A stretch of 62,326 nucleotides of DNA, counting the filler, from Collodictyon triciliatum (taxonomy: Eukaryota), in assembly GCA_043381765.1 (NCBI GenBank). It is 7 parts of 7 records of this genome, joined end to end, with 100 filler letters (N's around TTAATTAATTAA, not from the genome) between each part and the next. Parts side by side here need not be neighbours in the genome. Positions count along the whole stretch, not along the records: positions 47,175 to 55,393 come from JBHJMP010000126.1; 6 more parts are not named here. The stretch is one strand, 5' to 3'. The first letter of the stretch is position 1; the number at the start of each line of letters is the position of its first letter. A program made the translations under genes and the position numbers. Below, piece by piece: positions 6,998 through 60,600 of this stretch. The notes below the pieces were generated by a model. It had not been told where the DNA came from, ran no database searches, and saw only the letters and a list, made by a program, of their open reading frames with translations.

Positions 6998-8238
6998 GCC
7001 CCCGCGAGGCAGCACCCCCGCTACTGTCATGTGAAGGACCCCCCACCNNNNNNNNNNNNNNNNNNNNNNNNNNNNNNNNNNNNNNNNNNNNNNNNNNNNN
7101 NNNNNNNNNNNNNNNNNNNNNNNNNNNNNNNNNNNNNNNNNNNNNNNTATTATAGTTCTGAAATGGAGAGGAGGATCTGCCGGGGGGAGGGGGGGGGGGG
7201 GGGGGGGGGGCGGGCTCTACTTCTTCTTTGACAGCTGAAATTCCCTCGGCTATTCGACTGTGCATTTTTCGGTCAATAAGATTGACTTGGTCGCGAATAT
7301 GAGGTGTGATGACATTGTCTATCATATCCCTTTCCCAGACAAATAATCTTTGCTCGAGCAACTAAAGATATTCATTTATTAATTGATAAGGTTGAATAGT
7401 AGAAAAAAAGAAAGAAAAGAGTTAAAAAAACATTCATGTCGATATTGACAATCTGTTTGGGGATGAAGCAAGTGGCTAGAACTTTCCTATATTTTTGAAA
7501 TAGACAGAAAGAATACCATCAAAGATAAAAAGAAAGTATAAGAAAAATACAAATAAAACAATTCTCCTAAAACTGGGAAAATTATTCTATGATGTTTTCT
7601 TACACTTGCTATCGTATTATCCATGTTATCCATGATACCCATGCACCTATGTTTGATTTTGCTAACTTACTAGAGGGCAATATATATATTCAGTTTTTAT
7701 TTTATTTTTTTGCGTAACCCGTTCCGCTGAGTGGATATGTTGAGGGGGGAAAGGTAAGAAAAACTAATCTAAATTATAATTTTTGAAGCAATGGGAAGTG
7801 GCCTACTTTTCGACCCTTCCAGAAATCGCATCTAGCGCAACTTCCGTAGAGGTTTTTCCATCGAATTGTGCACGTGGCTCAGCTTTAGTAACAGGCTCGT
7901 GGGCTCCTGAGAAAGGAATTTTGGATCTTTTCTGTATATAATCGGCCACCTTCTGTACCTGTAATACATATTCGCAAAATATTTTTAAAAAATCACAAAA
8001 TCCTGTGTCAGGTATATGAAAGTAACCAAGAGAAGCTGTATCGGATTTGAATTAAATCGAATAAAATGCATTTGATGATTTAATATATATGAATAGCTAG
8101 TATAATTGATTTGATTTTACATCATATACGTTTTATAGAATAAAATTGACATGTCTGGGATTTACCATACAAGAATATATGCTTCATGTCTAATCGCTTT
8201 CAACTTTTTCATTTTTTATTTCTATTGTGGCTTCTAGC

Positions 8239-8273
<35 letters not shown>

Positions 8274-10554
8274 TGGATGAGGGTGAAGGGGAAAAAAGCT
8301 TCAATATGATTACCTCATTTCTCATCGATTCTAATTGAACTTGGAGCTCATGAGCAGTGTTTGACCTATGTTGCGATGCTGAGGCTCGACCCACCACTGG
8401 TGATTCTGGTCTTCTATATGGGGAGCTTTTGGGCCCTTTATGCAGGTATTGTGTTGTGGCATTTCTTGGGTTTTCTGAATCGATTGTATTCATAATAGTA
8501 GAGGAATATGAGGACGAAGAAAATGGAGTGAGTTTTTCATCTAGATTTCCTTTAGTTACCAATGACTCTTTTACATCACTACCATGAGTCGGTTTTTTGA
8601 CATGATAAGGTGCTTTCTCTGGATTTTGTGGTTCTTTTAATACAGCTTGGCTTTGTTCTATAAGCCTAGATGGACGAGAAAAAGATACATCGGGCGACTT
8701 TTGGCTGGCTGAGTGAAAAACTGGGTTAATACCTTTATCCACACTTAACTTAGAATGAATAGTCTTTTCTGTTTCAAAAAATCTATCTCTATCACTTTGC
8801 TGTTGAGGTCGACTATCTTTCTTAAGATCACTTGCCGCGGTAAGATGTGATGGATTATAGCTTTGGCTTTCAAGGTTGATTTTTGACTGGGCTGTTGGCA
8901 GAAATAAACTGTGGTTCCCCGGATCTCCAGAATCAAATGCTGATGAGAGCGACTTCGACTGGGACCCCACAAAAGTACCTGAATAATGCTGGGTGTCTGA
9001 ACCCGCAGTCGATGTGTGCGGTCTCAATGTTGTATTATGATCTCCTTGATAACCTCGAAGTGATTCATTGCCTGCGAATGTGTTTTGTTGCGAAAGCCCT
9101 ACACTTGAGCTTCGATTAGGTTGCGAATATGCCATCGATGATGTGGTCGTACTTGAGTGTCTTTCCTGTATAGCTGCTCGGCTGTCAAGTGATTTTTCGT
9201 TTTGTATTTTTTTCCTACTACTGGTATCAGTCTCAGATATGTCAACAAGACCAGAAACAGATGTTGAGTTCTGTGAATCTGAACTGGATCCAGTTGGTTG
9301 TCTCAGTATCGAGGCAGGACTCATGCCTGGTGCCCTTGCTCCCGCGTACTGATTCTGCAATGAAGATTTGTATTGGCCTTTGGATGGAACAAAGTGTGAA
9401 AATGAAGCAGATTGGCTTTTCAGGTATGAGTCACTTGCTTGGGGTTTTTGAGGGACAGATGATGTCGAGTGGGACTCATTATGGAGCTCAGATTGGTTGC
9501 TTGGATGCGAGTTTGTTTGGCTATCATGTTGCAATGATACTCTAGAATATCCATCAGTTTCGGAACGGAACTGTGATGTTGTATTTACACCTGATTTCGA
9601 TGCTGACTTGGTGCCACTTGTATAAGATTCATTGGGCAAGTATGGTCTTCCCCTACTATCCCTCTCGTTATGTGATTCTGTAGTAAACCTGGAAATATTT
9701 TGCGATTGGGGATAAGAATTGGATTGGAGTCTGGACTGATTCGTGTTTGTTTGATTTTGTGAGCTAAGCGTAGACTCTTCGTTGTAGTAAGACCTGTTTG
9801 GAGTTTGTGAGATTGATTGAGAGGGAGAGTCGCGCCTTTGTATGGGAGCTCGATTAGGGTGATGAGACTGGGATTGAGAGTATGAAAGGGAATGAGACTC
9901 GGAGCGACCATCTGAAATACTCAACTGGGTATTCCTCGTTGCAGTTTGAGATTGGGTTAGTGATTGCGAAAATGACTGCGAAAGTGATTCGGTGTTTGGG
10001 TCTTGAGAGTAGAATGAGCGAGAAGCTTGGTCCGGTCTTGAGTGTGCTTGCACTTGGTGCTCTGCACTAACCCTTTGAGGCGAATTATCCTGCGAATCCA
10101 TATCGACTTCTGATTCTGACTGAGGGTAAGAGCGACTATAATGTGGGGAATATGACACAGAATGACTCAATACATCCGACTTGGGATTACCGCGTGTTGG
10201 TGTTGCAGAATATATACTTTGAGGATTGGTTGCGTGGGAAAATGAATGAGTTTGTGAATGCGGATCAGACTGGGATGGATACTGCGATGGAATCATCGAC
10301 TGAGACAGTGACGTAGAAGGTGACTGTGTTCGTGAGTGAGGAGTGAACCGCGACCCTGAGGCATCTTCGTCTTGTGTGATGTCTCCTGACCGAGAAAAAA
10401 ACTGCCGGATGCTTTGTGGCGTTCCAATAGGCGGGCGACCGGCTGAACGCTGCGGACGTCCGTCTGGTTCTGACCCAAACGAATCGAATTCGTGACTTTT
10501 GCCGTTTTCAAAGTAGCTTAGGACAGAGGTAGAGTCCGAGCCTGTGCGGGACAT
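4625..10554 (-). CDS. Large Ser/Gln/Thr-rich hypothetical protein, multi-exon
   Basis: Open first exon of ~2.2 kb ends at MRNE|gtaatc. Later exons: VQKVADYIQKR..., LLEQRLFVWERD...poly-Pro, LDTVLSDKDKE..., APIDSTLREW..., GEPVVQ..., and a probable last exon ...KEAIEKYPN* (4625-4843). No domain recognised. Confidence 0.7.
6078..6182. repeat. (CAATAA)n microsatellite, intronic
   Basis: Tandem array seen directly. Confidence 0.95.
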
Positions 10555-10764
10555 TTCTCTGCGGCCAAGAGTTTTGTTGGTTTATAGTCTGATGTATTTG
10601 TCCTGCACGCGATCCAATATCATAAAGTTTTTGAACCCTCTCTCTTTTTATTATTTACCTTCTATATTTTTACTTTGATTGTTCACTTTTACTTTTGTTT
10701 TTTTGTTTTTTGTTTTTTGTTTTTTTGTTTTTTGTTTTTTGTTTTTTTGTTTTTTTGTTTTTTT

Positions 10765-10826
<62 letters not shown>

Positions 10827-10926
10827 NNNNNNNNNNNNNNNNNNNNNNNNNNNNNNNNNNNNNNNNNNNNTTAATTAATTAANNNNNNNNNNNNNNNNNN
10901 NNNNNNNNNNNNNNNNNNNNNNNNNN
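10827..10926. other. Artificial scaffold-joining spacer; also at 26358-26457, 30031-30130, 39070-39169, 47075-47174 and 55394-55493
   Basis: Identical 100-bp N44-TTAATTAATTAA-N44 blocks that put stops in all six frames. Confidence 0.95.
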
Positions 10927-47447: not shown

Positions 47448-48316
47448 CAGAAAAGAATTTCATCCTCCCGTGTCCTATAACATGCAGCGCCGTTGATTCA
47501 ACTGGCCGTATTCTGGCCTGCGGACACCAAGATGGAAGCACAATCGTTTGGGATATGGTTCTCGGTACAAACGCCTCTTGTTATCTAAGCATTCCTTAAT
47601 TTGAAAGAAAAAAGTGCATCGGTTCACTTATTTTGAACATAGAATTCTTTTGGATAAAAATTGTAATATTGAAATTTTTATCACATATACTGGACAGTAA
47701 AGCTATATCGTCTGTATTTTCTTTTACTCGTGAATCAATTTTTATGACCAGAGGTCTTTTAATCACTATTTTATCTTCTGAAACAACCAAAAAAATTATT
47801 TATTTTTGGTAAAAATAGGAACCGACATATTTCTTTTGTCCAAGCAAAAAACACCAATCACTTCAGTTTCTTTCTTCAAGCAGTCGCATGTTATCAACAG
47901 CTCAGTCGAGGGGATTGTTCATTTATATGGTATTATAATTGTCTATCCCAAGCAACCGTTCCCCGTTTATTGCAATAGAGCCAGTTGTTTCTATTTTCAT
48001 ACATTTATTTCAGATTTGACTGCCTCCGGGAAATTGTCCATTCATAAGGAAAGTGTGGCGCGTGTAGATTATGTTTCTGCGCTGATGGATGTACCTATTG
48101 TAATGCACTTCCTTAAAAACAAAAAACAAAAAACAAAAAAAACAAAAAACAAAAAAACAAAAAACAAAAAACAAAAAAAACAAAAAAACAAAAAACAAAA
48201 AACAAAAAAAAAAAAANNNNNNNNNNNNNNNNNNNNNNNNNNNNNNNNNNNNNNNNNNNNNNNNNNNNNNNNNNNNNNNNNNNNNNNNNNNNNNNNNNNN
48301 NNNNNNNNNNNNNNNN

Positions 48317-48379
<63 letters not shown>

Positions 48380-50367
48380 AAAAAACAAAAAACAAAAAAC
48401 AAAAAACAAAAAAAAAACAAATAAAAGAAAATAAAAGAGACTAATTCTTGAGACTCAAACAATAGGCAGTGAGCATGTCCCAGGAAGGTTCGATTCGGTT
48501 ATACAGTATCTTTGACAGAAGAATCATAGCGAAGCTTGGGATGATGAGCCCGTGGAAGGTTCACATAATGTTTTTTTTTCCTTTTTTTTTCCTTTTTTTT
48601 GTTCTGATTTGTTTTTCTTCATAAACCCCCAATAACTCTTTGAATTATGCTGGTATATTCAAACCGTGTGAATAGCTCAAGCCTTCGGGACTTTTTATCT
48701 CATGCTTTGATAACTTTGTGTCGCTTCTTGGTTTCCGTGAGGTGATTTAACTTTACGATTTATCCCAGATTTTTTCCCTACCTATGAAAAGTCAACTTAA
48801 TCACTTTTTTCAAGACTTTAGACTAAGCAATATATTTCCCTTTTCCCTTTTCCCTTTTCCCTTTTCCCTTTTCCCTTTTCCCTTTTCCCTTTTCCCTTTT
48901 CCCTTTTCCCTTCTCTTTTTCTATGCAACGTCATATCATTCTGGCCATAATCTATCTGGATTCCAGACCGAAACTGACAACGTATCCCAAACGCGCGATA
49001 CATTCTTAATGAATAATTTTCTTTATTCCCAGCACAATCAAAATCAATTCTATTATGATATTTTTTTCTTGATAAAATTGAAAAAAAGGACAGCACAAAG
49101 ATGTTGGTGTATTTCCTTGGTGAGATGGCTATTTCGAGGTATTCTTTCTGGTTTACTATTATGCTGTTCGAGGTATAAAGGACATTTATTCAGTACTTTT
49201 TTTATTCCCTCTCCTTTTGTTCAACTACAACGATAAACGACGCCTCTATTCTTAAAAACAGGTCAGGCGACCACTCGTCTCTGGAGATTAATGTAGTTGC
49301 CATGCTTAAAGCTTCTGACAAGCACTATTTGTTTATTTGTTAAACAGCAAATTTGATAAAGGCCCATTTTTGCACTATTATTTCTAAAGTTGAATATACC
49401 TGGAGTACTATATTTTATGATAGAAGCCGCAAATTATGTTCGATATGATATTTTTTTAAAGTTCGATTCAAAAGACCACTTACTCACCTAATCAAATAAT
49501 CAGAAAGTCCCGGGTGAGATGTCCAGTACACCTATTCCACTTCCGTCTGAGCGCGAAGGTAAGATGCATTTTGTCCAATACAGATATATTAAACAACAAA
49601 TAGTAAGAAATGGATCAAAAGTGAATCTAAATGAAGAAAGAAAAAAAGGCTTTCTATGGAAAAACGTGTAAAATATTTATCTTTGTAAACTCTTTTTTTG
49701 TTGTTGTTTTCTTTATCCCTTTAGCCGACGACTCCCGAAGGTATTAGGCGATGGGCCATTTGCTTTCTTTCACATTAATTTGTATCTTCCTGAATTTACC
49801 ATAATATCACGCATTAATATAAGAAGCTGTATCTCACAAATCGCCTCGCTTTTTTTTCCTGCATTTGTAGNNNNNNNNNNNNNNNNNNNNNNNNNNNNNN
49901 NNNNNNNNNNNNNNNNNNNNNNNNNNNNNNNNNNNNNNNNNNNNNNNNNNNNNNNNNNNNNNNNNNNNNNNNNNNNNNNNNNNNNNNNNNNNNNNNNNNN
50001 NNNNNNNNNNNNNNNNNNNNNNNNNNNNNNNNNNNNNNNNNNNNNNNNNNNNNNNNNNNNNNNNNNNNNNNNNNNNNNNNNNNNNNNNNNNNNNNNNNNN
50101 NNNNNNNNNNNNNNNNNNNNNNNNNNNNNNNNNNNNNNNNNNNNNNNNNNNNNNNNNNNNNNNNNNNNNNNNNNNNNNNNNNNNNNNNNNNNNNNNNNNN
50201 NNNNNNNNNNNNNNNNNNNNNNNNNNNNNNNNNNNNNNNNNNNNNNNNNNNNNNNNNNNNNNNNNNNNNNNNNNNNNNNNNNNNNNNNNNNNNNNNNNNN
50301 NNNNNNNNNNTCTGGTAAGACTCCTTAGGTTCTTCGCCATGGGTGGCATCTGCAAAGGTAACAGTCG
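47448..50367 (+). CDS. WD40-repeat protein fragment (tentatively WDR93-like)
   Basis: Exons FILPCPITCSAVDSTGRILACGHQDGSTIVWD, PITSVSFF...SVEGIVHLYDL and AVSMSQEGSIRLYSI. Exons after 48558 are uncertain and a gap intervenes. Confidence 0.6.
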
Positions 50368-51094
50368 AACGAGTAAGCGATTGTTGAGCTTGTAGCAGCA
50401 GCACAACTAGAAAACAATTGGGTTTCCGAATATTCTATATATATATATCTTGACTTCTTCCCCATTTCTGTACAGCAACATTTGATGCTTGACTGCAAGA
50501 AGCCTCATAGGTTTCGAGAGTAATGACAGAAATAAAAGTCCAAGTAAATCCATGCAACATAGGTGAGATCAGCTTTGGATCAGCCTTGGATAATAGTACA
50601 CTACTGTTTATACCGTAAAAATATATGTGGAAAATAGGGCGGAATCCGCTCCAACCCACCGGCGGATTGGTACATCTCAGACTACGCGCCCGCCCGCCAC
50701 CACAACAATTATTTTATTACCTATAAAAAAAAAACTTACCTGTTCGGCCGTAGGCAATCTCTATTCATCACAACAATTTAATTAAAAAAGAAATTAAACA
50801 AAGAATGCCTCTGGGTATTCTCACCTCTATGATTTGGTCTAGATTAGCCGGTGTCGAAGTAAAAATCCACATTCAATTCGCCCGCATCGCCACACTGCCA
50901 CAATTCAACTGGACATTTGATATTCGCAAAAAGCCAAAGCCATCCCAACCAACGTCCCTCATCCCCTGCAAGTGCTGCTGTTTTATACGTTGCCGAGACC
51001 GAGCATCCAGGCCACAGGGAAGGGTCTGGTCATGGGGCAAAGAAGATGCGGCGCAGCATTGTTGGAGAAGGGAGGGCTGGTAGTGAGAGAATGC

Positions 51095-52915
51095 TTAGCC
51101 GAGGACGGGCATGCTCATGCTAGACGAGAGAGTGCTGATGTCGTCATCCTTCCAGAGGCTTGTGATGGTCTTTGTCTGTGTGTAGAACTGCACGGCACTC
51201 TTCCCATAGAAGTTGACATCGCCGCGGATGGAGCCACGCGAGCCAGTGAACGAGAAGAAGGGGAGAGGCACGGGGATGGGCACGTTGACACCGACCTGGA
51301 GATGATGTGATTCTGAGAAATTGTGAGAAATGGTGAGAAATGGCGAGAAATTATAACCTGTCCGACGTCGATCTCGTGCTGGTACTTGCGTGCTGCGGCA
51401 CCAGAGCGTGTAAAGATGGCGGTTCCGTTTCCGTAGGGGTTCTTGTTAATGAGTGAGATGGCATCGTCCAGGGTGTTGACCTTGACGCAAATCATCACGG
51501 GGCCGAAAACCTTCAATGATTGATTTACATATAAATGTTTGCATTCACCACTTTATTTGCATTATTGCGAGTTATGGAATCACACCAAAACCTCGAATCA
51601 GGACTTGGCTAGGATATAGTAACCATGACATGTTTCAGGCTGTGAAGATGATAGAGATGGAGATGTATATGGTTTACCTCTTCCTTGTAGATTTCCATAT
51701 CAGGAGTGACATCAGTAATGATAGTTGGGCCAACAAAGTTTCCTTGGTCGTATCCGGGCACTTTGATATTGCGGCCGTCGAGGAGGATTCGAGCACCCTC
51801 TTTCGCACTGTTTTCGATCAGGCGGTGGACTCTGTCCTTGGACTGAGGAGCAAGAAATTATATGTATATGTTTAGGGCTGGACTGACTAAGACATCTGTA
51901 CACACAGAGAGCAAAGTGCTCATGTGCTGACGTATTTTACTCTGTCTTGAAAGAGTGCTATAAAAGGGAGAGATAGATATATACAAAAAGGAAGAAAAGG
52001 ATAAGAAAAAAAAAAGGGAAGGGAGACAAGAGAGATTGTTAAAGTTCGGTTACATCTTTGGAGACAAGCGGGCCCATATTAGCCTTGGGGTCAGCTGGGT
52101 TTGTGACGACAAGACGCTTGGCACGCTCAACGAGGTCATTAATCCTGTAGTTAAAAAGGTCCACGGTAAGTAATTGAATATTGATTTACATAAACGAAAC
52201 GAAACTTCACGCAGGTGAACGCACAAAACGTATTTACCAGGCCTGGCTTTCACCCACAAACAAAGTGGCAGATAGAGCCATGCAGCGTTGTCCAGAGGCC
52301 CCAAAAGCAGCACCAGTCAGCGCATCCAGCGTCGTTTCACGATTGGCATCTGGGAGGATGGTGGCATGGTTCTTTGCTCCAAGATTCGCCTACGGTGCAT
52401 ATTAATAAAAGAAAATTATTTTCTGTCATCACAAATTGTGGAACAAGAATTGAGATTGATAGGCAACATACTTAAGTGGTCATTTGTTTAAAAGTGGTAG
52501 TTGTACCTGAACTCGTTTCCCATTCTTTGAACCTAATTCGTGAATGTAAGTTCCGACACGGTTACTTCCGACAAAGGAAATAGCACGAATGTCGGGGTGT
52601 GTACAGATAAAATCAACGGATTCCTATATGTTATAGTCTATTATTAATATGAATCACATGATATTTCCCATTTCATCTAATACTACTGGAGCAAGTGGGA
52701 ATGCAAACCTTTTGGCCGTGGATTACATTCAGTACTCCTGGTGGGAGTCCAGCTTTCAAAGCTAATTCGGCAAGGAACATAGTAGCTCCAGGGTCGCGCT
52801 CGGATGGCTTGAGGACGAAGGTATTACCACAAGCTGTGGCGATTGGGAACCTGGTGTTAAAACATATCGTTTAAGTCAACTTCAGGTTATTCTAGGATAT
52901 TTCTTGTCAAAATAT

Positions 52916-52982
<67 letters not shown>

Positions 52983-54135
52983 AAGCTCATATTAGAGGCT
53001 CCAATAACCGAGATGCAAAAATCCACTCACATCTGATCGCATAGATCGTTGGTTTCCAGGGTGAAGTCAGTGTTGATGGCAGAACAAGTATTTGTAGACA
53101 TAAATGCAATATATAGTAAAACATTATCGGTTAATTTTATGATACGTGCATTCGAGAAGAGTAAAGTTTCAGGCGGTAGAGCCATAAGGGCTAACTACAG
53201 AGTGAATGAACTATGGCATAGTACCCACCCATAGAGGAATCATAGCAGGAAAATTAAATGGGGTAATTCCAGCGCACACGCCCAAAGGTTGGCGGTAGCT
53301 GTATGTATCCATATTGCGGGAAACTCCTTCGGCAGTTTCGCCCATAGTTAATGTCGCCATCGAGCAAGCGTGCTCGACAACTTCTAGTCCACGGAAAACG
53401 TCACCCTAGCAACCCACAAGTTTCAAAAACGAAAAAAAATTGCAACTGTGAATAGAAGATTGAAATCAACATATTGATTGGATGTGTATGCGACTTTCTC
53501 AGCCAAAGTCTGTCTTCATATAAGGGGGTGCGTAAGATTACGATTTAATATACAAGCTGCAAAGCGATAAATGATGTATATCTAGAACAAACCTCAGCAT
53601 CAGCCTTGGTTTTGCCGAGCTCTTGGGTAATGAGGCTTGCAATCTTTCCCTGAAGGATGAAATGAAGAAGCATCAGCGAGGACAGGGCAAGCAATCGGGG
53701 AAAATCATGCTTGTATATGGAACAAGGAGTATGGGTGCTGTAACAAACCGTGTTCTCCCGAATAAGCTGTTGGTAATTGAACATGGTGCGGACTCTGGTG
53801 AGTGTGCTGACGTCTTTCCAGGACTTGAAGGCCTCTTTGGCGGCTGCGACTGCTGCATTCATTTCGTCGTTGGTAGTCAGCGGAACGCGAGAGACAACCT
53901 CCTGAGTGGCCTGTTTTGCGTGTTTCCGCAGAGTGATTGAGAGTTGCCATGATACTTTGCGGTTCGAGTCGAGACAAATAGTAGAATAAGGCAGTCTTCT
54001 ATGACTATGTAAGAGGAATGGAGCAAAAAAATAAAATAAAATACAGACGGGATTCGTCACGTCCACGAAGTTTTTGGCCTTGGACTCGACAGCCTGGCCA
54101 TTGATGAGAAGCTTCACAGTCGGCTGTAGCAAATC

Positions 54136-54166
<31 letters not shown>

Positions 54167-54428
54167 GGTGAAAAATACGGTACAGGCTCTTGTCCCGCTC
54201 ACTGGATAAAGAGGAGCAATGTGCAGCCATCTGATGAGCTTAACAAATATGGAGAGTCATACTTATAGAAACCATGAAAAAGACTCCTAGGGTACGAATG
54301 CTGTGGATGAACATATATGTGACATAAAACAGTATGATCCTAACTGCAGGTGAGGCATTGGCCGACAAAAGGCGGGCCGACAGACCGGTCTGCAATGGGC
54401 TGGCTTGAAGCAGTTTTGAGGCGATCAT
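51095..54428 (-). CDS. ALDH6A1: Methylmalonate-semialdehyde dehydrogenase, mitochondrial; 12 exons including a 2-nt exon
   Basis: Contains [99 protein letters not shown] and [12 protein letters not shown]. The N-terminus looks like a presequence. Confidence 0.97.
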
Positions 54429-56472: not shown

Positions 56473-57591
56473 CTGCTTAATCTCTGCAGCAGAAAGCTCA
56501 ACAAATCGATTGTTGTTTGAAACAAATTTGAATGGAATCATTCCCAAAGCTCCGTCATAGCGATTCTTTCTGACGTCCAAGAATTGGAAATCAAGGCCTC
56601 TTTGGACTAATGATGTACCAGGAGGTCAGATGATACTTTTGAATGTTTCTTTCTATCATGTATAATTACTAACTAATCACAATATTATCAGCTTCTTGAG
56701 TTGCCTTCGCTGTGCCTGAGACTGGATAGATAATATTTAATTTTAGCCCTTCAGTGTTCAATAGTAATATTAAGAGAGGAAGAAGAAAACGTATTTATAA
56801 ACTGCAAACACCTGATGATGTAGTTAGTTGTGTGTTTGCTTCTTCCTTTCGGGGATGTATTACAATGGTTATATGGACATTCTATGCATACATAAATGTT
56901 CGTTTTTGCTTAATTAGAAGGGTCAAAAATTTCCAGTTTGAATATGAATGAAATAAGCAAATTAAAAGGTTATTTTAAACACACCATCATGGTTGCATAT
57001 TTTCGGAATTTGCTTATTGCATAGTCTTGAATATCGAACTTGTCAAGGCCCCTTCCTTGGTCGCTCAACATGAATTGAAGGTTGTCGATAATTATATGAC
57101 CAACATCATACTTGTTTGAATTCAAAATTTTAAATGAATAAAGTGATCTCTTAAAATCAATTAAGTGTTGATAAGGTCATTTTGAGTCATAATTAATGAT
57201 TCATATACCATTAAATTAAAAAAATAGTGAATTAAGAGGCAGAAAACAGGCGGACAAATAGAAATGAAAAGAAATGAAAAGAAATGAAAAGAAATGAAAA
57301 GAAATGAAATGAAAAGAAATGAAAAGAAATGAAAAGAAATGAAATGAAAAGAAATGAAAAGACAGGAAAAGAAATGAAAAGAAACTAACAAAGATACCAA
57401 AAAAAACTAAAGCATGATAGCAGGGAACTTACTCGATACACAGCAAAATCGATTGCATCAAAAATCTAAACATAATACAAATGAGAGAAGGCGAATTATT
57501 ATTTGAGTTAACATATGAGCTCAATCAGAAATTTACCAAAATAATAAACAAAGACAAAAACAAAGACAACAACAAAATAATAAACAAAAAC

Positions 57592-57625
<34 letters not shown>

Positions 57626-60600
57626 ACAAAAAACAAAAACAAAAAACAAAAACAAAAACAAAAACAAAAACAAAAACAAAAACAAAAAACAAAAACAAAA
57701 ACAAAAACAAAAACAAAAACAAAAACAAAAACAAAAACAAAAACAAAAACAAAAAACAAAAACAAAAAACAAAAACAAAAACAAAAACAAAAACAAAAAC
57801 AAGGGGCTCACGTCATCGATAGCAGTGGACCCGTAAAATTTCATAAAGTATATTTGAAGTTTTGAGAATTCATCTGCATACCTTCGTGATTGAAAAAGAA
57901 GAAGAAAAAAAGGTCGGCAAAACTTCATAACAATCGAATGAAGATATGTTGAATCAATTATAAGTCGTACTTTGGAAATTCCGTCCTAATTAAATTCAAA
58001 TCTCTTCCAAAATACTGGCACATCATTTTCTTAATCAAGTTGGTGTTTTTAACCTGTTTGTAATTTTTAATCAATTAATGTTCAAAATGAAGTTAATTAG
58101 AAGGTACAATGATTGATGTTAATCAATATAATCAAATAGTGATAATTTGTATATAGACTGATAGGTGTATACCTCAAAGCTACCCCATAAAGTGTTTATT
58201 CCTTGGTGTGTAAAGTCTACAGAGAGTTGGCTAAGAAGGGTTGTCTTTCCGCACCCTGGGAATATAATCATAATATCAGCAGACCTAAAAATCAACACAC
58301 ATTTGGTACGACCAAAGAATATCCTTCCAAGAGTACATTCGACTTAATTGGCGGATAGTATTAGACCTGTGGGTCCAGTAACAACTGTTAGCTCTCCTCT
58401 ACGAAGCCCTTTTAAAATCTTATTGTATGTCGGAAACGAAAAACAGGGCAGGCCCGCGCTCTAATGAACGGAAATAGAAAAAGCAGAATTAAATATGTCA
58501 GAATATACTACTCTTGAATGATTATGCCCGATATTTCGTCCTCAATAAAATCAGATCCATCAATCTGTCTATTACCGCCGGGTCATTGATATTGTCAAAC
58601 AGCTCTTTTTGCAACTCTCTAAAGTTCAGGACTTGCCCATGTGTTGGTTTAATAGCACTTTTAACGATTTCCTAGTATATGTATTGTTTTCATGGGATAA
58701 TATCCACAGTTTACCGATATTCTATAGTACTTTCACTTGAAATATTACAAACATTCAAGTCAAGGCCACGTAACAAAGCTTCGCTAGCGTCAATTGGGCC
58801 GTCTGGAGTGCCATTTTTTGAATGAATCACAAAGCATCTGGACCTCCCAAACTGAATGTATGATATTTATGATTTTAAATAAGCTCAGTGCATATATTTA
58901 ACAAGAATGTGAGTATATTGCTATGAACCTTTCTAATGGCCTTCTCTACGCCCTCTCTTCCAACTGGGTCATCTTGAAACCATAAATAAAGTTCATCAAC
59001 ACTGAAAGTAAGAAACTTTCTAAAGTTAAAATTTTCCCCTCGAAACGACGAAATTGTGAAAATATGAAATACGTTATTCTCGAGTTTTTTTTAAATATAA
59101 ATTGTTAGTGATATTTACTCTTCGAGTAGAGGGACAATGGCAGGGGGGATAAAACTTGTTCCAAAAGGCAATGAAAATGCAGGTATTGATGTGCCCTGAT
59201 AGGCTAAATTTCAAAAAAAAATAAATAAATTATAAGCATCGGAGTACTCATCGAACCAAACAACAGAAGAAAACAACAGAAGAAAACAACAGAAGAAAAC
59301 AACAGAAGAAAACAACAGAAGAAAACAACAGAAGAAAACAACAGAAGAAAACAACAGAAGAAAACAAAATACAACAAAATACAACAAAATACAACAAAAT
59401 ACAACAAAATACAACAAAATACAACAAAATACAACAAAATACAACAAAATACAACAAAACANNNNNNNNNNNNNNNNNNNNNNNNNNNNNNNNNNNNNNN
59501 NNNNNNNNNNNNNNNNNNNNNNNNNNNNNNNNNNNNNNNNNNNNNNNNNNNNNNNNNNNNNAGAATAAAATAGAATAAAATAGAATAAAATAGAATAAAA
59601 TAGAATAAAATAGAATAAAATAGAATAAAATAGAATAAAATAGAATAAAATAGAATAAAATAGAACAAAACAAAACAAAACAAAATAAAACAAAATAAAA
59701 CAAAATAAACAAAATAAACAAAATAAAACAAAATAAAACAAAATAAAACAAAATAAAACAAAATAAAACAAAATAAAACAAAATAAAACAAAAGAAAGTA
59801 TTCAAAAGAGAACAAAAGAGAAAATAAAAGATGCCATAAATTTAAGAGAAAGCCACCTGCCATAGCCCCCAATTCCGTGTCTCAGCAAAATAAAAAAAGC
59901 GTAGATGAGAAATGATGACTCAGTTTCTGAAACGAAGAACACATGCATGAATGAATTTTTTCGTAAAAAAAAGAGAGTGTACTATGAAAGGCTAAATTAC
60001 CAGTAAGGATGGCTTTTTTCGTATCTGTCTTTATTATAGGGAGGCCAAATAACGAGACATCAGTGGAATATTTATCACTAGGAAATACCTATTCAGCGTT
60101 GACATGAAGTCTTATTCGGATGCAGAGTCTATTCGGATGGTTGTCATTACAAGGAATGAAAAAAAAAGGAACAAACCTGGTATTCATTACCGATAACCGA
60201 GAAGCACTTTATTCTTTTCAGATTATATTCTTTTGGTATTGCCGATGATTTATTCGGGAGATACCATGGATAAACGACATGGTCTTCAAGGTTACCAAAT
60301 ATGTTTCGTTTGTTGGTAAATCCGACCTGTTTAATTATTCGATTTGTGAGTGAATTACATGTCTCTTGGTGAGATGACCCAAACAGATATTGCAAAACAA
60401 CACTTATTCTTGGCGTGGCTATTTTCTCATCAGTTATTCATCAACAAGAAACTACTTCTTAACTTGACATTTTGGTCACACAAAAAAATATAATGAGATA
60501 ATTTGTTAAGATGTTCATTTCATGATTACGCTGTAGGTTTCCAGGATTTTTGTGTCAATTTTCTTTAGTTTTCGGAAATAATCGACAATCGGGCTTGCAT

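What the first reader, a model, noticed from the sequence alone, without database searches (positions are those of the whole stretch)
53031..53032. Two-nucleotide microexon (AT) in ALDH6A1
Seen: the upstream exon ends ...ATT CCT CTA TGG|gtgggt (phase 0, boundary 53229/53228) and the downstream exon begins accag|G TTC CCA ATC (52850). Direct joining frameshifts. The conserved family sequence IPLWMFP needs exactly AT. Midway, the minus strand reads gatcag|AT|gtgagt, with an ACTGAC branch-like motif ~35 nt upstream and introns of 196 and 180 nt on either side. Alternatives fail: an in-frame TAA blocks upstream acceptors, and other junctions add or delete conserved residues. Inference: a constitutive 2-nt exon in a housekeeping enzyme, near the lower limit of exon size. 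It implies intron-definition or ordered recursive-like splicing.
Basis: partly seen in the sequence, partly recalled or inferred. Interest (0 to 1): 0.85.

Follow-up and report, generated by a model that had tools for sequence, protein, structure and literature searches.

The report
Real two-base exon in MMSDH gene
A freshwater protist's gene for a common mitochondrial enzyme really contains an exon only two bases long (AT) that its messenger RNA includes; such ultra-short exons are rare but already known from plants and fungi.

Summary
On the minus strand an exon ends ...CTATGG at 53229, the next begins GTTCCC at 52850, and AG|AT|GTGAGT sits between them at 53031-53032.

Assembled RNA contigs from 3 public runs in 2 studies join 53229 to 52850 with exactly the letters AT between.

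Of 33 AT dinucleotides in the 378-nt gap, only this one has AG before and GT after. AGATGTRAGT occurs once in the whole window. With AT the spliced gene gives an open methylmalonate-semialdehyde dehydrogenase frame, 458 of 519 aligned residues identical to a Diphylleia rotans transcript protein. Without AT a stop follows after 8 codons.

The host is therefore a collodictyonid-like protist, not an animal.

In 85 of 117 metagenome loci an intron sits at the same place after the Trp codon, but the next exon starts with the whole ATG. The 180-nt downstream intron therefore looks like a lineage-specific gain that stranded AT.

Ordered splicing is inferred, not shown. A 2-bp assembly deletion is not formally excluded, because no DNA reads were laid. 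This is a new member of a known kind: 1-nt exons are published for plants and fungi.

The parts
53229..53405 (-). Upstream coding exon, ending ...[10 protein letters not shown] in phase 0 (last codon TGG at 53231-53229)
   Evidence: Sequence. It matches human MMSDH chain 9izx residues 106-162, E 6e-25. RNA contigs cover it with 0 differences in X1, X2 and X3 (table 8).
53033..53228 (-). Upstream intron, 196 nt, gtgggt...gatcag. It has a branch-like ACTGAC at 53071-53066 and sits at a position shared with many other eukaryotes.
   Evidence: GT..AG borders. It is skipped by RNA contigs. In 85 of 117 metagenome loci an intron sits directly after the same TGG.
53031..53032 (-). Two-nucleotide exon AT. 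It supplies the first two bases of the Met codon of the conserved IPLW-M-FP stretch.
   Evidence: AT lies between the two sides of the joint in contigs of X1 (depth 50.4), X2 (39.4) and X3 (2.8) (table 5c). It is the only AG|AT|GT among 33 AT dinucleotides in the gap. AGATGTRAGT is unique in the window. AT restores the frame.
52851..53030 (-). Downstream intron, 180 nt, gtgagt...caccag, in phase 2 inside the Met codon. It holds a (GTT)n microsatellite at about 52916-52984.
   Evidence: GT..AG borders. Of the 11 introns listed it is the only one whose donor reads GTRAGT. It is skipped by RNA contigs. No matching intron was found in 117 metagenome loci. No other copy exists in the window apart from microsatellite matches.
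52709..52850 (-). Downstream coding exon. It begins with G, the third base of the Met codon, then [21 protein letters not shown]...
   Evidence: Sequence. It matches MMSDH chains at residues 164-209 of 9izx and 192-238 of 5tjr. RNA contigs cover it.
51095..54124 (-). The part of the MMSDH gene that was seen: 12 exons including the 2-nt one. The stop codon is at 51095-51097. The 5' end with the start codon was not resolved.
   Evidence: Joints of RNA contigs, intron table, spliced model aligned to P0006, and the ORF end.

Best explanation
The AT at 53032-53031 (minus strand) is a genuine internal coding exon of two nucleotides in the nuclear gene for methylmalonate-semialdehyde dehydrogenase of a collodictyonid-like freshwater protist. 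It lies between two ordinary GT-AG spliceosomal introns of 196 and 180 nt, and it supplies the first two bases of the Met codon in the conserved IPLW-M-FP stretch.

Shown: the mature RNA carries exactly AT between the two large exons. The genome offers one canonical source for it.

Inferred (mechanism): a 3' splice site and a 5' splice site two bases apart cannot both be occupied at once, so the two introns are removed one after the other by intron definition. The downstream intron has the stronger signals: a GTGAGT donor and a T-richer acceptor. It is therefore the likelier first step. After that, AT plus the next exon make a normal-sized 3' exon for the weak upstream intron (donor GTGGGT, purine-rich acceptor).

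Inferred (origin): an old intron sat after the Trp codon, and a new intron was gained two bases further on, stranding AT.
For: 1. RNA. Contigs of 3 of the 4 runs laid (X1, X2, X3; studies P1 and P2) join 52850 to 53229 with the letters AT between. Their other letters in both flanking exons are identical to the window (tables 5, 5c, 8). In the fourth run (X4), two records ending at 53229 run on into a relative's cDNA that also puts ...AT before the exon (table 7).
2. Source of AT. AT is not contiguous with either exon: the genome reads GT after TGG and AG before GTTCCC. One of 33 AT dinucleotides in the gap is flanked AG..GT.
3. Chance. The motif AGATGTRAGT occurs once in the window against 0.15 expected, and in 0.1% of shuffles of the gap.
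4. Frame. With AT the spliced model is open and 458 of 519 aligned residues match the D. rotans protein P0006, which reads [16 protein letters not shown]. Without AT the frame stops after 8 codons.
5. Fit to the gene. The 9 ordinary introns are 62-211 nt. Introns of 196 and 180 nt fit that range, whereas a single 378-nt intron would be the longest.
6. Origin. Of 117 metagenome loci with [10 protein letters not shown] followed by GT, 85 (33 distinct exon peptides) have an intron at exactly this place and a next exon that starts AG|ATG. None has a G-start exon with an upstream AGATGT.
7. Precedent for ordered removal. [quoted passage not shown] Passages of PMC8831610 report that flanking introns of plant microexons are removed consecutively, with the upstream intron more often detained.
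Against: - No DNA reads of the same strain were laid, and the assembly is a gapped draft with 22 N runs in the window. A 2-bp deletion in the assembly at one junction is therefore not formally excluded.
- The RNA evidence is assembled contigs, not raw reads. Contigs cannot show rare isoforms, splicing intermediates or the order of intron removal.
- The bare AGATGT would turn up by chance in 12% of shuffled gaps. The statistical weight rests on the extended donor, yet most donors in this gene are far from GTRAGT.
- The acceptor before AT has a weak pyrimidine tract.
- No genome of a relative could be examined, so conservation of the microexon and the intron-gain scenario are untested.
Confidence: 0.9

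Rival explanations
1. Assembly error: the real genome has AT directly after ...CTATGG or directly before GTTCCC. The draft lost two bases at an exon border, so there is one ordinary 376- to 378-nt intron and no microexon.
For: The window is a gapped draft with 22 N runs. No whole genome is held. The metagenome scan found no DNA of the same species.
Against: - Neither junction is repetitive.
- The RNA contigs show 0 other differences in the two flanking exons (table 8).
- The error would have to fall exactly on an exon border, and a perfect AG|AT|GTGAGT would also have to lie in the intron by chance. That motif appears in 0.1% of shuffles and once in the window against 0.15 expected.
- A 378-nt intron would be the longest in the gene.
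Confidence: 0.06
2. The two letters are added to the RNA by another route: insertional RNA editing, trans-splicing, or a non-canonical splice that takes AT from another place in the intron.
For: Contigs show only that AT is in the mRNA, not where it came from. There are 33 AT dinucleotides in the gap.
Against: - All 9 ordinary introns of the gene, and both introns beside AT, are canonical GT..AG.
- The other 32 AT dinucleotides lack AG before, GT after, or both.
- Dinucleotide insertion editing is known to me only from mitochondria of some amoebozoans (recalled, not from a call). This is a nuclear, intron-bearing gene.
- The perfect AG|AT|GTGAGT would be an unexplained coincidence.
Confidence: 0.02
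3. Artefact of RNA contig assembly: the AT is an assembler error, or a chimera with a relative's transcript.
For: Logan contigs are automatic assemblies, and metatranscriptomes hold relatives. X3 and X4 have loose ends from other organisms at nearby places (table 7).
Against: - Three runs from two studies, years 2018 and 2025, give the same AT at depths 50.4, 39.4 and 2.8.
- Without AT the reading frame breaks.
- All 6 relatives' proteins read in full show W-M-FP at this place.
Confidence: 0.01

Closest known systems
Constitutive 1-nt exon of Arabidopsis APC11 (Guo and Liu 2015, PMC4674806; abstract and discussion passages read)
   Same: It is an ultra-short internal coding exon between two canonical introns, missed by annotation and needed to keep the frame. 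The authors argue that exon definition is impossible and that the introns are removed one after the other.
   Different: It is 1 nt rather than 2 nt, in a plant rather than a collodictyonid-like protist, and in a different gene. The plant case was tested with reporter constructs and mutations. Here there are only RNA contigs.
Plant microexons of 1-15 nt, including 1-nt exons of APC11 and VPS55 (Yu et al. 2022, PMC8831610; passages read)
   Same: They are conserved coding microexons with strong flanking donor sites (GTRAGT at the VPS55 1-nt exon). The flanking introns are removed consecutively, with the upstream intron often detained.
   Different: I saw no explicit 2-nt case in the passages read. 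The size distribution is in a figure and in supplements that I could not see. The lineage and gene differ, and conservation of the present exon in relatives is untested.
1-nt exon in Fusarium CYP621A P450 genes (PMC12940212; abstract, introduction and discussion passages read)
   Same: An ultra-short exon inside a conserved protein motif, found by frame repair and confirmed with public RNA reads. [quoted passage not shown] 2003. I could not read that paper, which is not held.
   Different: The organism is a fungus, the exon is 1 nt, and the gene family is different.
Zero-nucleotide recursive splice sites (ratchet points) of long Drosophila introns (Burnette 2005 and Duff 2015; seen only in the reference list and discussion of PMC4674806; otherwise recalled)
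   Same: An acceptor AG lies right next to a strong donor GT(R)AGT, so a 5' splice site is rebuilt after the first step. Removal is stepwise.
   Different: At a ratchet point nothing stays in the mRNA, and the introns are very long. Here 2 nt stay and are coding, and the introns are under 200 nt.
2-nt exon (TG) in Naegleria gruberi Zn2Cys6 genes, an earlier unchecked note of this scan (e1-636783)
   Same: A two-nucleotide coding exon between short introns in a protist, needed for a conserved domain.
   Different: The organism and gene differ, and that case was reported as already in a public gene model. I did not test it.

Membership tests
Ultra-short constitutive coding microexon (1-3 nt) between two spliceosomal introns | The mature RNA holds letters between two exons that are contiguous with neither exon in the genome | tested here: met
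   AT lies between 52850 and 53229 in contigs of X1, X2 and X3 (table 5c). The genome reads GT after the upstream exon and AG before the downstream exon.
Ultra-short constitutive coding microexon (1-3 nt) between two spliceosomal introns | The same letters lie in the intervening DNA, flanked by a canonical acceptor AG and donor GT, at a unique place | tested here: met
   AG|AT|GTGAGT sits at 53034-53025. It is 1 of 33 AT dinucleotides in the gap, and the motif is unique in the window.
Ultra-short constitutive coding microexon (1-3 nt) between two spliceosomal introns | Inclusion is needed for the reading frame and restores a conserved residue | tested here: met
   With AT the frame is open and reads W-M-FP as in P0006. 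Without AT a stop follows after 8 codons. Residue 163 of the human chain is the one missing.
Ultra-short constitutive coding microexon (1-3 nt) between two spliceosomal introns | The genomic sequence at the junctions is confirmed by DNA reads or an independent assembly | not tested
No genome is held. No same-species contig was among the 117 metagenome loci.
Ultra-short constitutive coding microexon (1-3 nt) between two spliceosomal introns | Constitutive use: no isoform skips the exon | tested here: inconclusive
   All 3 contigs that span the place carry AT and none lacks it. Contigs drop rare variants, however.
Recursive (ratchet-point) splicing | Zero nucleotides remain in the mRNA at the AG|GT site | tested here: not met
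   Two nucleotides remain and are coding. It may work like recursive splicing but is not a ratchet point.
Recursive (ratchet-point) splicing | Stepwise removal shown by intermediates or lariats | not testable with these tools
   Only contigs were available, and they gave no cover inside 52887-53219 (table 2).
CoA-acylating methylmalonate-semialdehyde dehydrogenase (ALDH6 family), the host gene | Full-length sequence similarity to characterised or solved MMSDH proteins | tested here: met
   The two exons match solved human and bacterial MMSDH chains at E 6e-25 and 4e-17. The spliced model is 458/519 identical to the D. rotans protein P0006, which carries Pfam PF00171. Enzyme activity was not tested.

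The most novel reading that the evidence does not exclude
This is an RNA-supported, apparently constitutive 2-nt nuclear exon in a deep-branching CRuMs-type protist. It was created recently, when a new 180-nt intron landed two bases downstream of an intron position that this gene shares with many distant eukaryotes. If so, it is a natural, datable case of microexon birth by intron gain. Its two splice sites overlap the footprint of one spliceosome, so it is also a minimal substrate for obligatorily ordered splicing outside plants, fungi and animals.
Probability: 0.55. Interest if true: 0.55.

Novelty: new member of a known kind. Interest (0 to 1): 0.45.

Why it matters
- **Annotation.** Gene finders and standard spliced aligners miss exons this short. 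This essential-looking enzyme gene would be annotated as frameshifted, truncated or a pseudogene, and the same error is likely elsewhere in this and other protist genomes.
- **Mechanism.** An acceptor and a donor two bases apart cannot be recognised together, so the case bears on how intron definition and ordered splicing work at the lower size limit. It extends the documented range of such exons from plants and fungi to a lineage near the base of Amorphea.
- **Evolution.** The contrast with 85 loci from other eukaryotes, which keep the upstream intron but have an intact ATG, gives a concrete model for how a microexon is born.

Tried and rejected
- **Own genome.** No genome is held, so there was no check for paralogues, haplotigs or other microexons genome-wide.
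- **Same-species DNA in metagenomes.** The scan for [10 protein letters not shown] followed by GT gave 117 loci, none with this window's intron start.
- **Introner or repeat origin of either intron.** BLAST of both introns against the window found only (GTT)n-like microsatellite matches.
- **RNA structure around the microexon.** The 398-nt stretch folds no better than shuffles, z = +1.96. A local 9-bp hairpin covers AG-AU-GUGAG, but 5% of shuffles fold as well. It is not taken as evidence.
- **Longer non-canonical microexons.** TGGAT at the donor and ATGTT near the acceptor would need TG, TT or GG splice sites. They were rejected by reading.
- **U12-type AT-AC intron.** An ATATCCT in the downstream intron cannot give the observed mRNA (read).
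- **Parts without RNA cover.** No contig lay inside 52887-53219 in any of the 4 runs, and X4 had no joint at this place. Neither says anything about retained introns or skipping.
- **Earlier notes of this scan.** Searches by place and by sequence returned nothing.
- **Literature.** Searches for a 2-nt exon, or for a microexon in MMSDH/ALDH6A1 or collodictyonids, found no such report in the held library. The one hit for '2 nt exon' (PMC7725694, on HLA-F; listing only) appears unrelated.
- **Papers I could not see.** Volfovsky 2003 (PMC403649) is not held. Supplements, for example the microexon size tables of PMC8831610, were not seen and may list 2-nt exons.

Full report
**What is in the sequence**

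The gene lies on the minus strand. An exon ends ...GCT ATG ATT CCT CTA TGG at 53229 and is followed by gtgggtac. The next large exon begins G TTC CCA ATC at 52850, preceded by ttttaacaccag. In the 378 nt between them the strand reads gcgatcag|AT|gtgagtgg, with AT at 53032-53031.

The two exons match solved methylmalonate-semialdehyde dehydrogenase (MMSDH) chains. In the human chain 9izx they cover residues 106-162 and 164-209, so exactly one residue is left over between them. Joining the two exons directly shifts the frame and gives a stop after 8 codons. An in-frame TAA at 52873-52871 rules out acceptors further upstream.

**What the RNA shows**

The stretch was used to look for public RNA runs. 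The best holders carried 0.43-0.46 of its sampled words. That is about the exonic share of the stretch by my own arithmetic from the exon borders (about 320 of 701 nt).

Contigs of four runs were laid on 51000-54300. In X1 and X2 (one study, 2025) and X3 (a lake-water metatranscriptome of another study, 2018), a contig passes from 52850 to 53229 with two further letters, AT, between the two sides. The depths are 50.4, 39.4 and 2.8. The flanking exon pieces have 0 other differences.

The fourth run (X4) has no joint here. Two of its records end at 53229 and run on into a relative's cDNA, which also has ...AT before this exon. The same contigs skip 9 other introns of the gene, all GT..AG on the gene strand. 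One further joint row (51299 to 51362, X2) comes from a contig with 21 other letters and is probably a relative or a paralogue. No contig lies inside the gap, so nothing can be said about intermediates.

**Where the AT comes from**

AT is contiguous with neither exon. The gap holds 33 AT dinucleotides. Only the one at 53032-53031 has AG before and GT after.

The extended motif AGATGTRAGT occurs once on both strands of the whole 62-kb window, against 0.15 expected from shuffles. It occurs in 0.1% of 200,000 shuffles of the gap. The bare AGATGT occurs in 12%.

Of the 11 introns listed, the one after AT is the only one whose donor (GTGAGT) reads GTRAGT. The others read gtctgt, gtttgt (twice), gtgggt, gtttgc, gtacaa, gtaaat, gtaacc, gtaaac and gttata. 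The nine ordinary introns are 62-211 nt long. Introns of 196 and 180 nt fit that range, while 378 nt would be the longest.

Longer microexons with shifted borders would need non-canonical sites, so I rejected them.

**The spliced model and the organism**

With the 2-nt exon the twelve exons give one open frame. It aligns along its whole mature length with protein P0006, with 458 of 519 aligned residues identical. P0006 reads ...[22 protein letters not shown].... P0006 is a transcript-derived EukProt protein of Diphylleia rotans and was by far the closest named relative, at 96% identity on the upstream exon.

Together with the lake and freshwater metatranscriptome holders, this points to a collodictyonid-like freshwater protist (CRuMs), not an animal. 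'ALDH6A1' should be read as the MMSDH orthologue. No whole genome is held for the window.

**Origin**

A scan of metagenome contigs for [10 protein letters not shown] followed by GT gave 117 loci. They sort as follows:

| Class | Loci |
|---|---|
| Intron directly after the TGG, next exon begins AG\|ATG-FP... | 85 (33 distinct 18-residue exon starts; introns 28-923 nt) |
| Read through with Val, no intron | 16 |
| No downstream exon found by my pattern | 16 |

Of the last 16, 12 have 427 nt or less of downstream sequence. Of the four with more than 900 nt of downstream sequence, L033 proved standard by tblastn, and L096 and L108 showed only later exons. None of the 117 loci has an exon that starts with G and an AGATGT upstream of it.

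The upstream intron therefore sits at a position shared by many diverged eukaryotes. The downstream intron, which splits the Met codon after AT, was seen only here. I infer that a new intron was gained 2 nt downstream of an old one. This is an inference: no relative's genome could be examined, and the 180-nt intron has no other copy in the window.

**How it most likely works**

*Shown:* AT is in the mRNA between the two exons.

*Inferred:* the acceptor AG and the donor GT are two bases apart, so they cannot be bound at once, and the introns go one after the other by intron definition. The downstream intron has the stronger donor and a somewhat T-richer acceptor. I expect it to go first. That would leave AT joined to a 142-nt exon as a normal 3' exon for the weak upstream intron.

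This is also the order reported for plant microexons, where upstream introns are more often detained (PMC8831610, passages). [quoted passage not shown] The opposite order, in which splicing of the upstream intron first rebuilds TGGAT|GTGAGT, is not excluded.

No unusual RNA structure supports either order.

**Rivals**

- A 2-bp deletion in the draft assembly at one exon border would explain the RNA equally well. It would also require a perfect AG|AT|GTGAGT to lie in the intron by chance. I give it about 6%. It needs DNA reads to be closed, and I could not lay them.
- Editing or non-canonical splicing: about 2%.
- An RNA assembly artefact: about 1%. Three runs from two studies agree, and the frame needs the AT.

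**Comparison with what is known, and novelty**

Constitutive 1-nt exons are published for Arabidopsis APC11 (PMC4674806), for plant VPS55 (PMC8831610) and for Fusarium CYP621A (PMC12940212). [quoted passage not shown] I could not read the cited paper.

An earlier, unchecked note of this scan reports a 2-nt exon in Naegleria that is already in a public gene model.

Five searches of the held library found no report of a 2-nt exon in MMSDH or in collodictyonids. Supplements were closed.

This is therefore a new member of a known kind. Interest 0.45.

Noticed in passing
window 52916-52984 (minus strand, inside the 180-nt intron): A (GTT)n microsatellite of about 23 units fills more than a third of the downstream intron. 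Similar GTT/TTG-type repeats occur elsewhere in the window, for example near 57540-57800, 48120-48410 and 10690-10830.
   Followed up: partly
whole window: There are 22 runs of N, many of exactly 44 or 100 letters and some in pairs 12 bases apart. The window is a gapped or partly masked draft scaffold.
   Followed up: no
window 51296-54048, the 11 introns of the MMSDH gene: The donor sites are very loosely conserved beyond GT (gtctgt, gtttgt, gtacaa, gttata and others). Only the donor after the 2-nt exon reads GTRAGT. Nine of the 11 downstream exons start with G.
   Followed up: partly
window 53229 and 52822 (loose ends of contigs in runs X4 and X3): Metatranscriptome contigs of other organisms align to one exon and then diverge. 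Two different relatives' cDNAs both read W-M-F-P across this junction, one AT-rich and one GC-rich (table 7).
   Followed up: no
window 53034-53011 (minus strand): A predicted 9-bp hairpin pairs AG-AU-GUGAG with UUUGCAUCU downstream, covering the acceptor, the exon and the donor. Pairing probability is 0.88-0.99 over 53034-53026, but 5% of shuffles fold as well.
   Followed up: yes
window 51299-51362 and 51093-51299 (run X2, record 4): A 498-nt contig with 21 differences from the window, and a joint shifted by 6 nt with non-canonical ends. It suggests a diverged second copy or a related organism in that run (tables 5, 8).
   Followed up: no
window 32017-34929 (+) and 8212-10581 (-): Two very long open frames of 971 and 790 residues. 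The first begins with WD40-like repeats (my reading of the letters, no family search). They are unusual in a window where other genes are broken into short exons.
   Followed up: no
proteins P0001-P0004: The top-scoring database hits are plant proteins of 1133-1206 residues, about twice the normal MMSDH length. They look like tandem or fused gene models.
   Followed up: no
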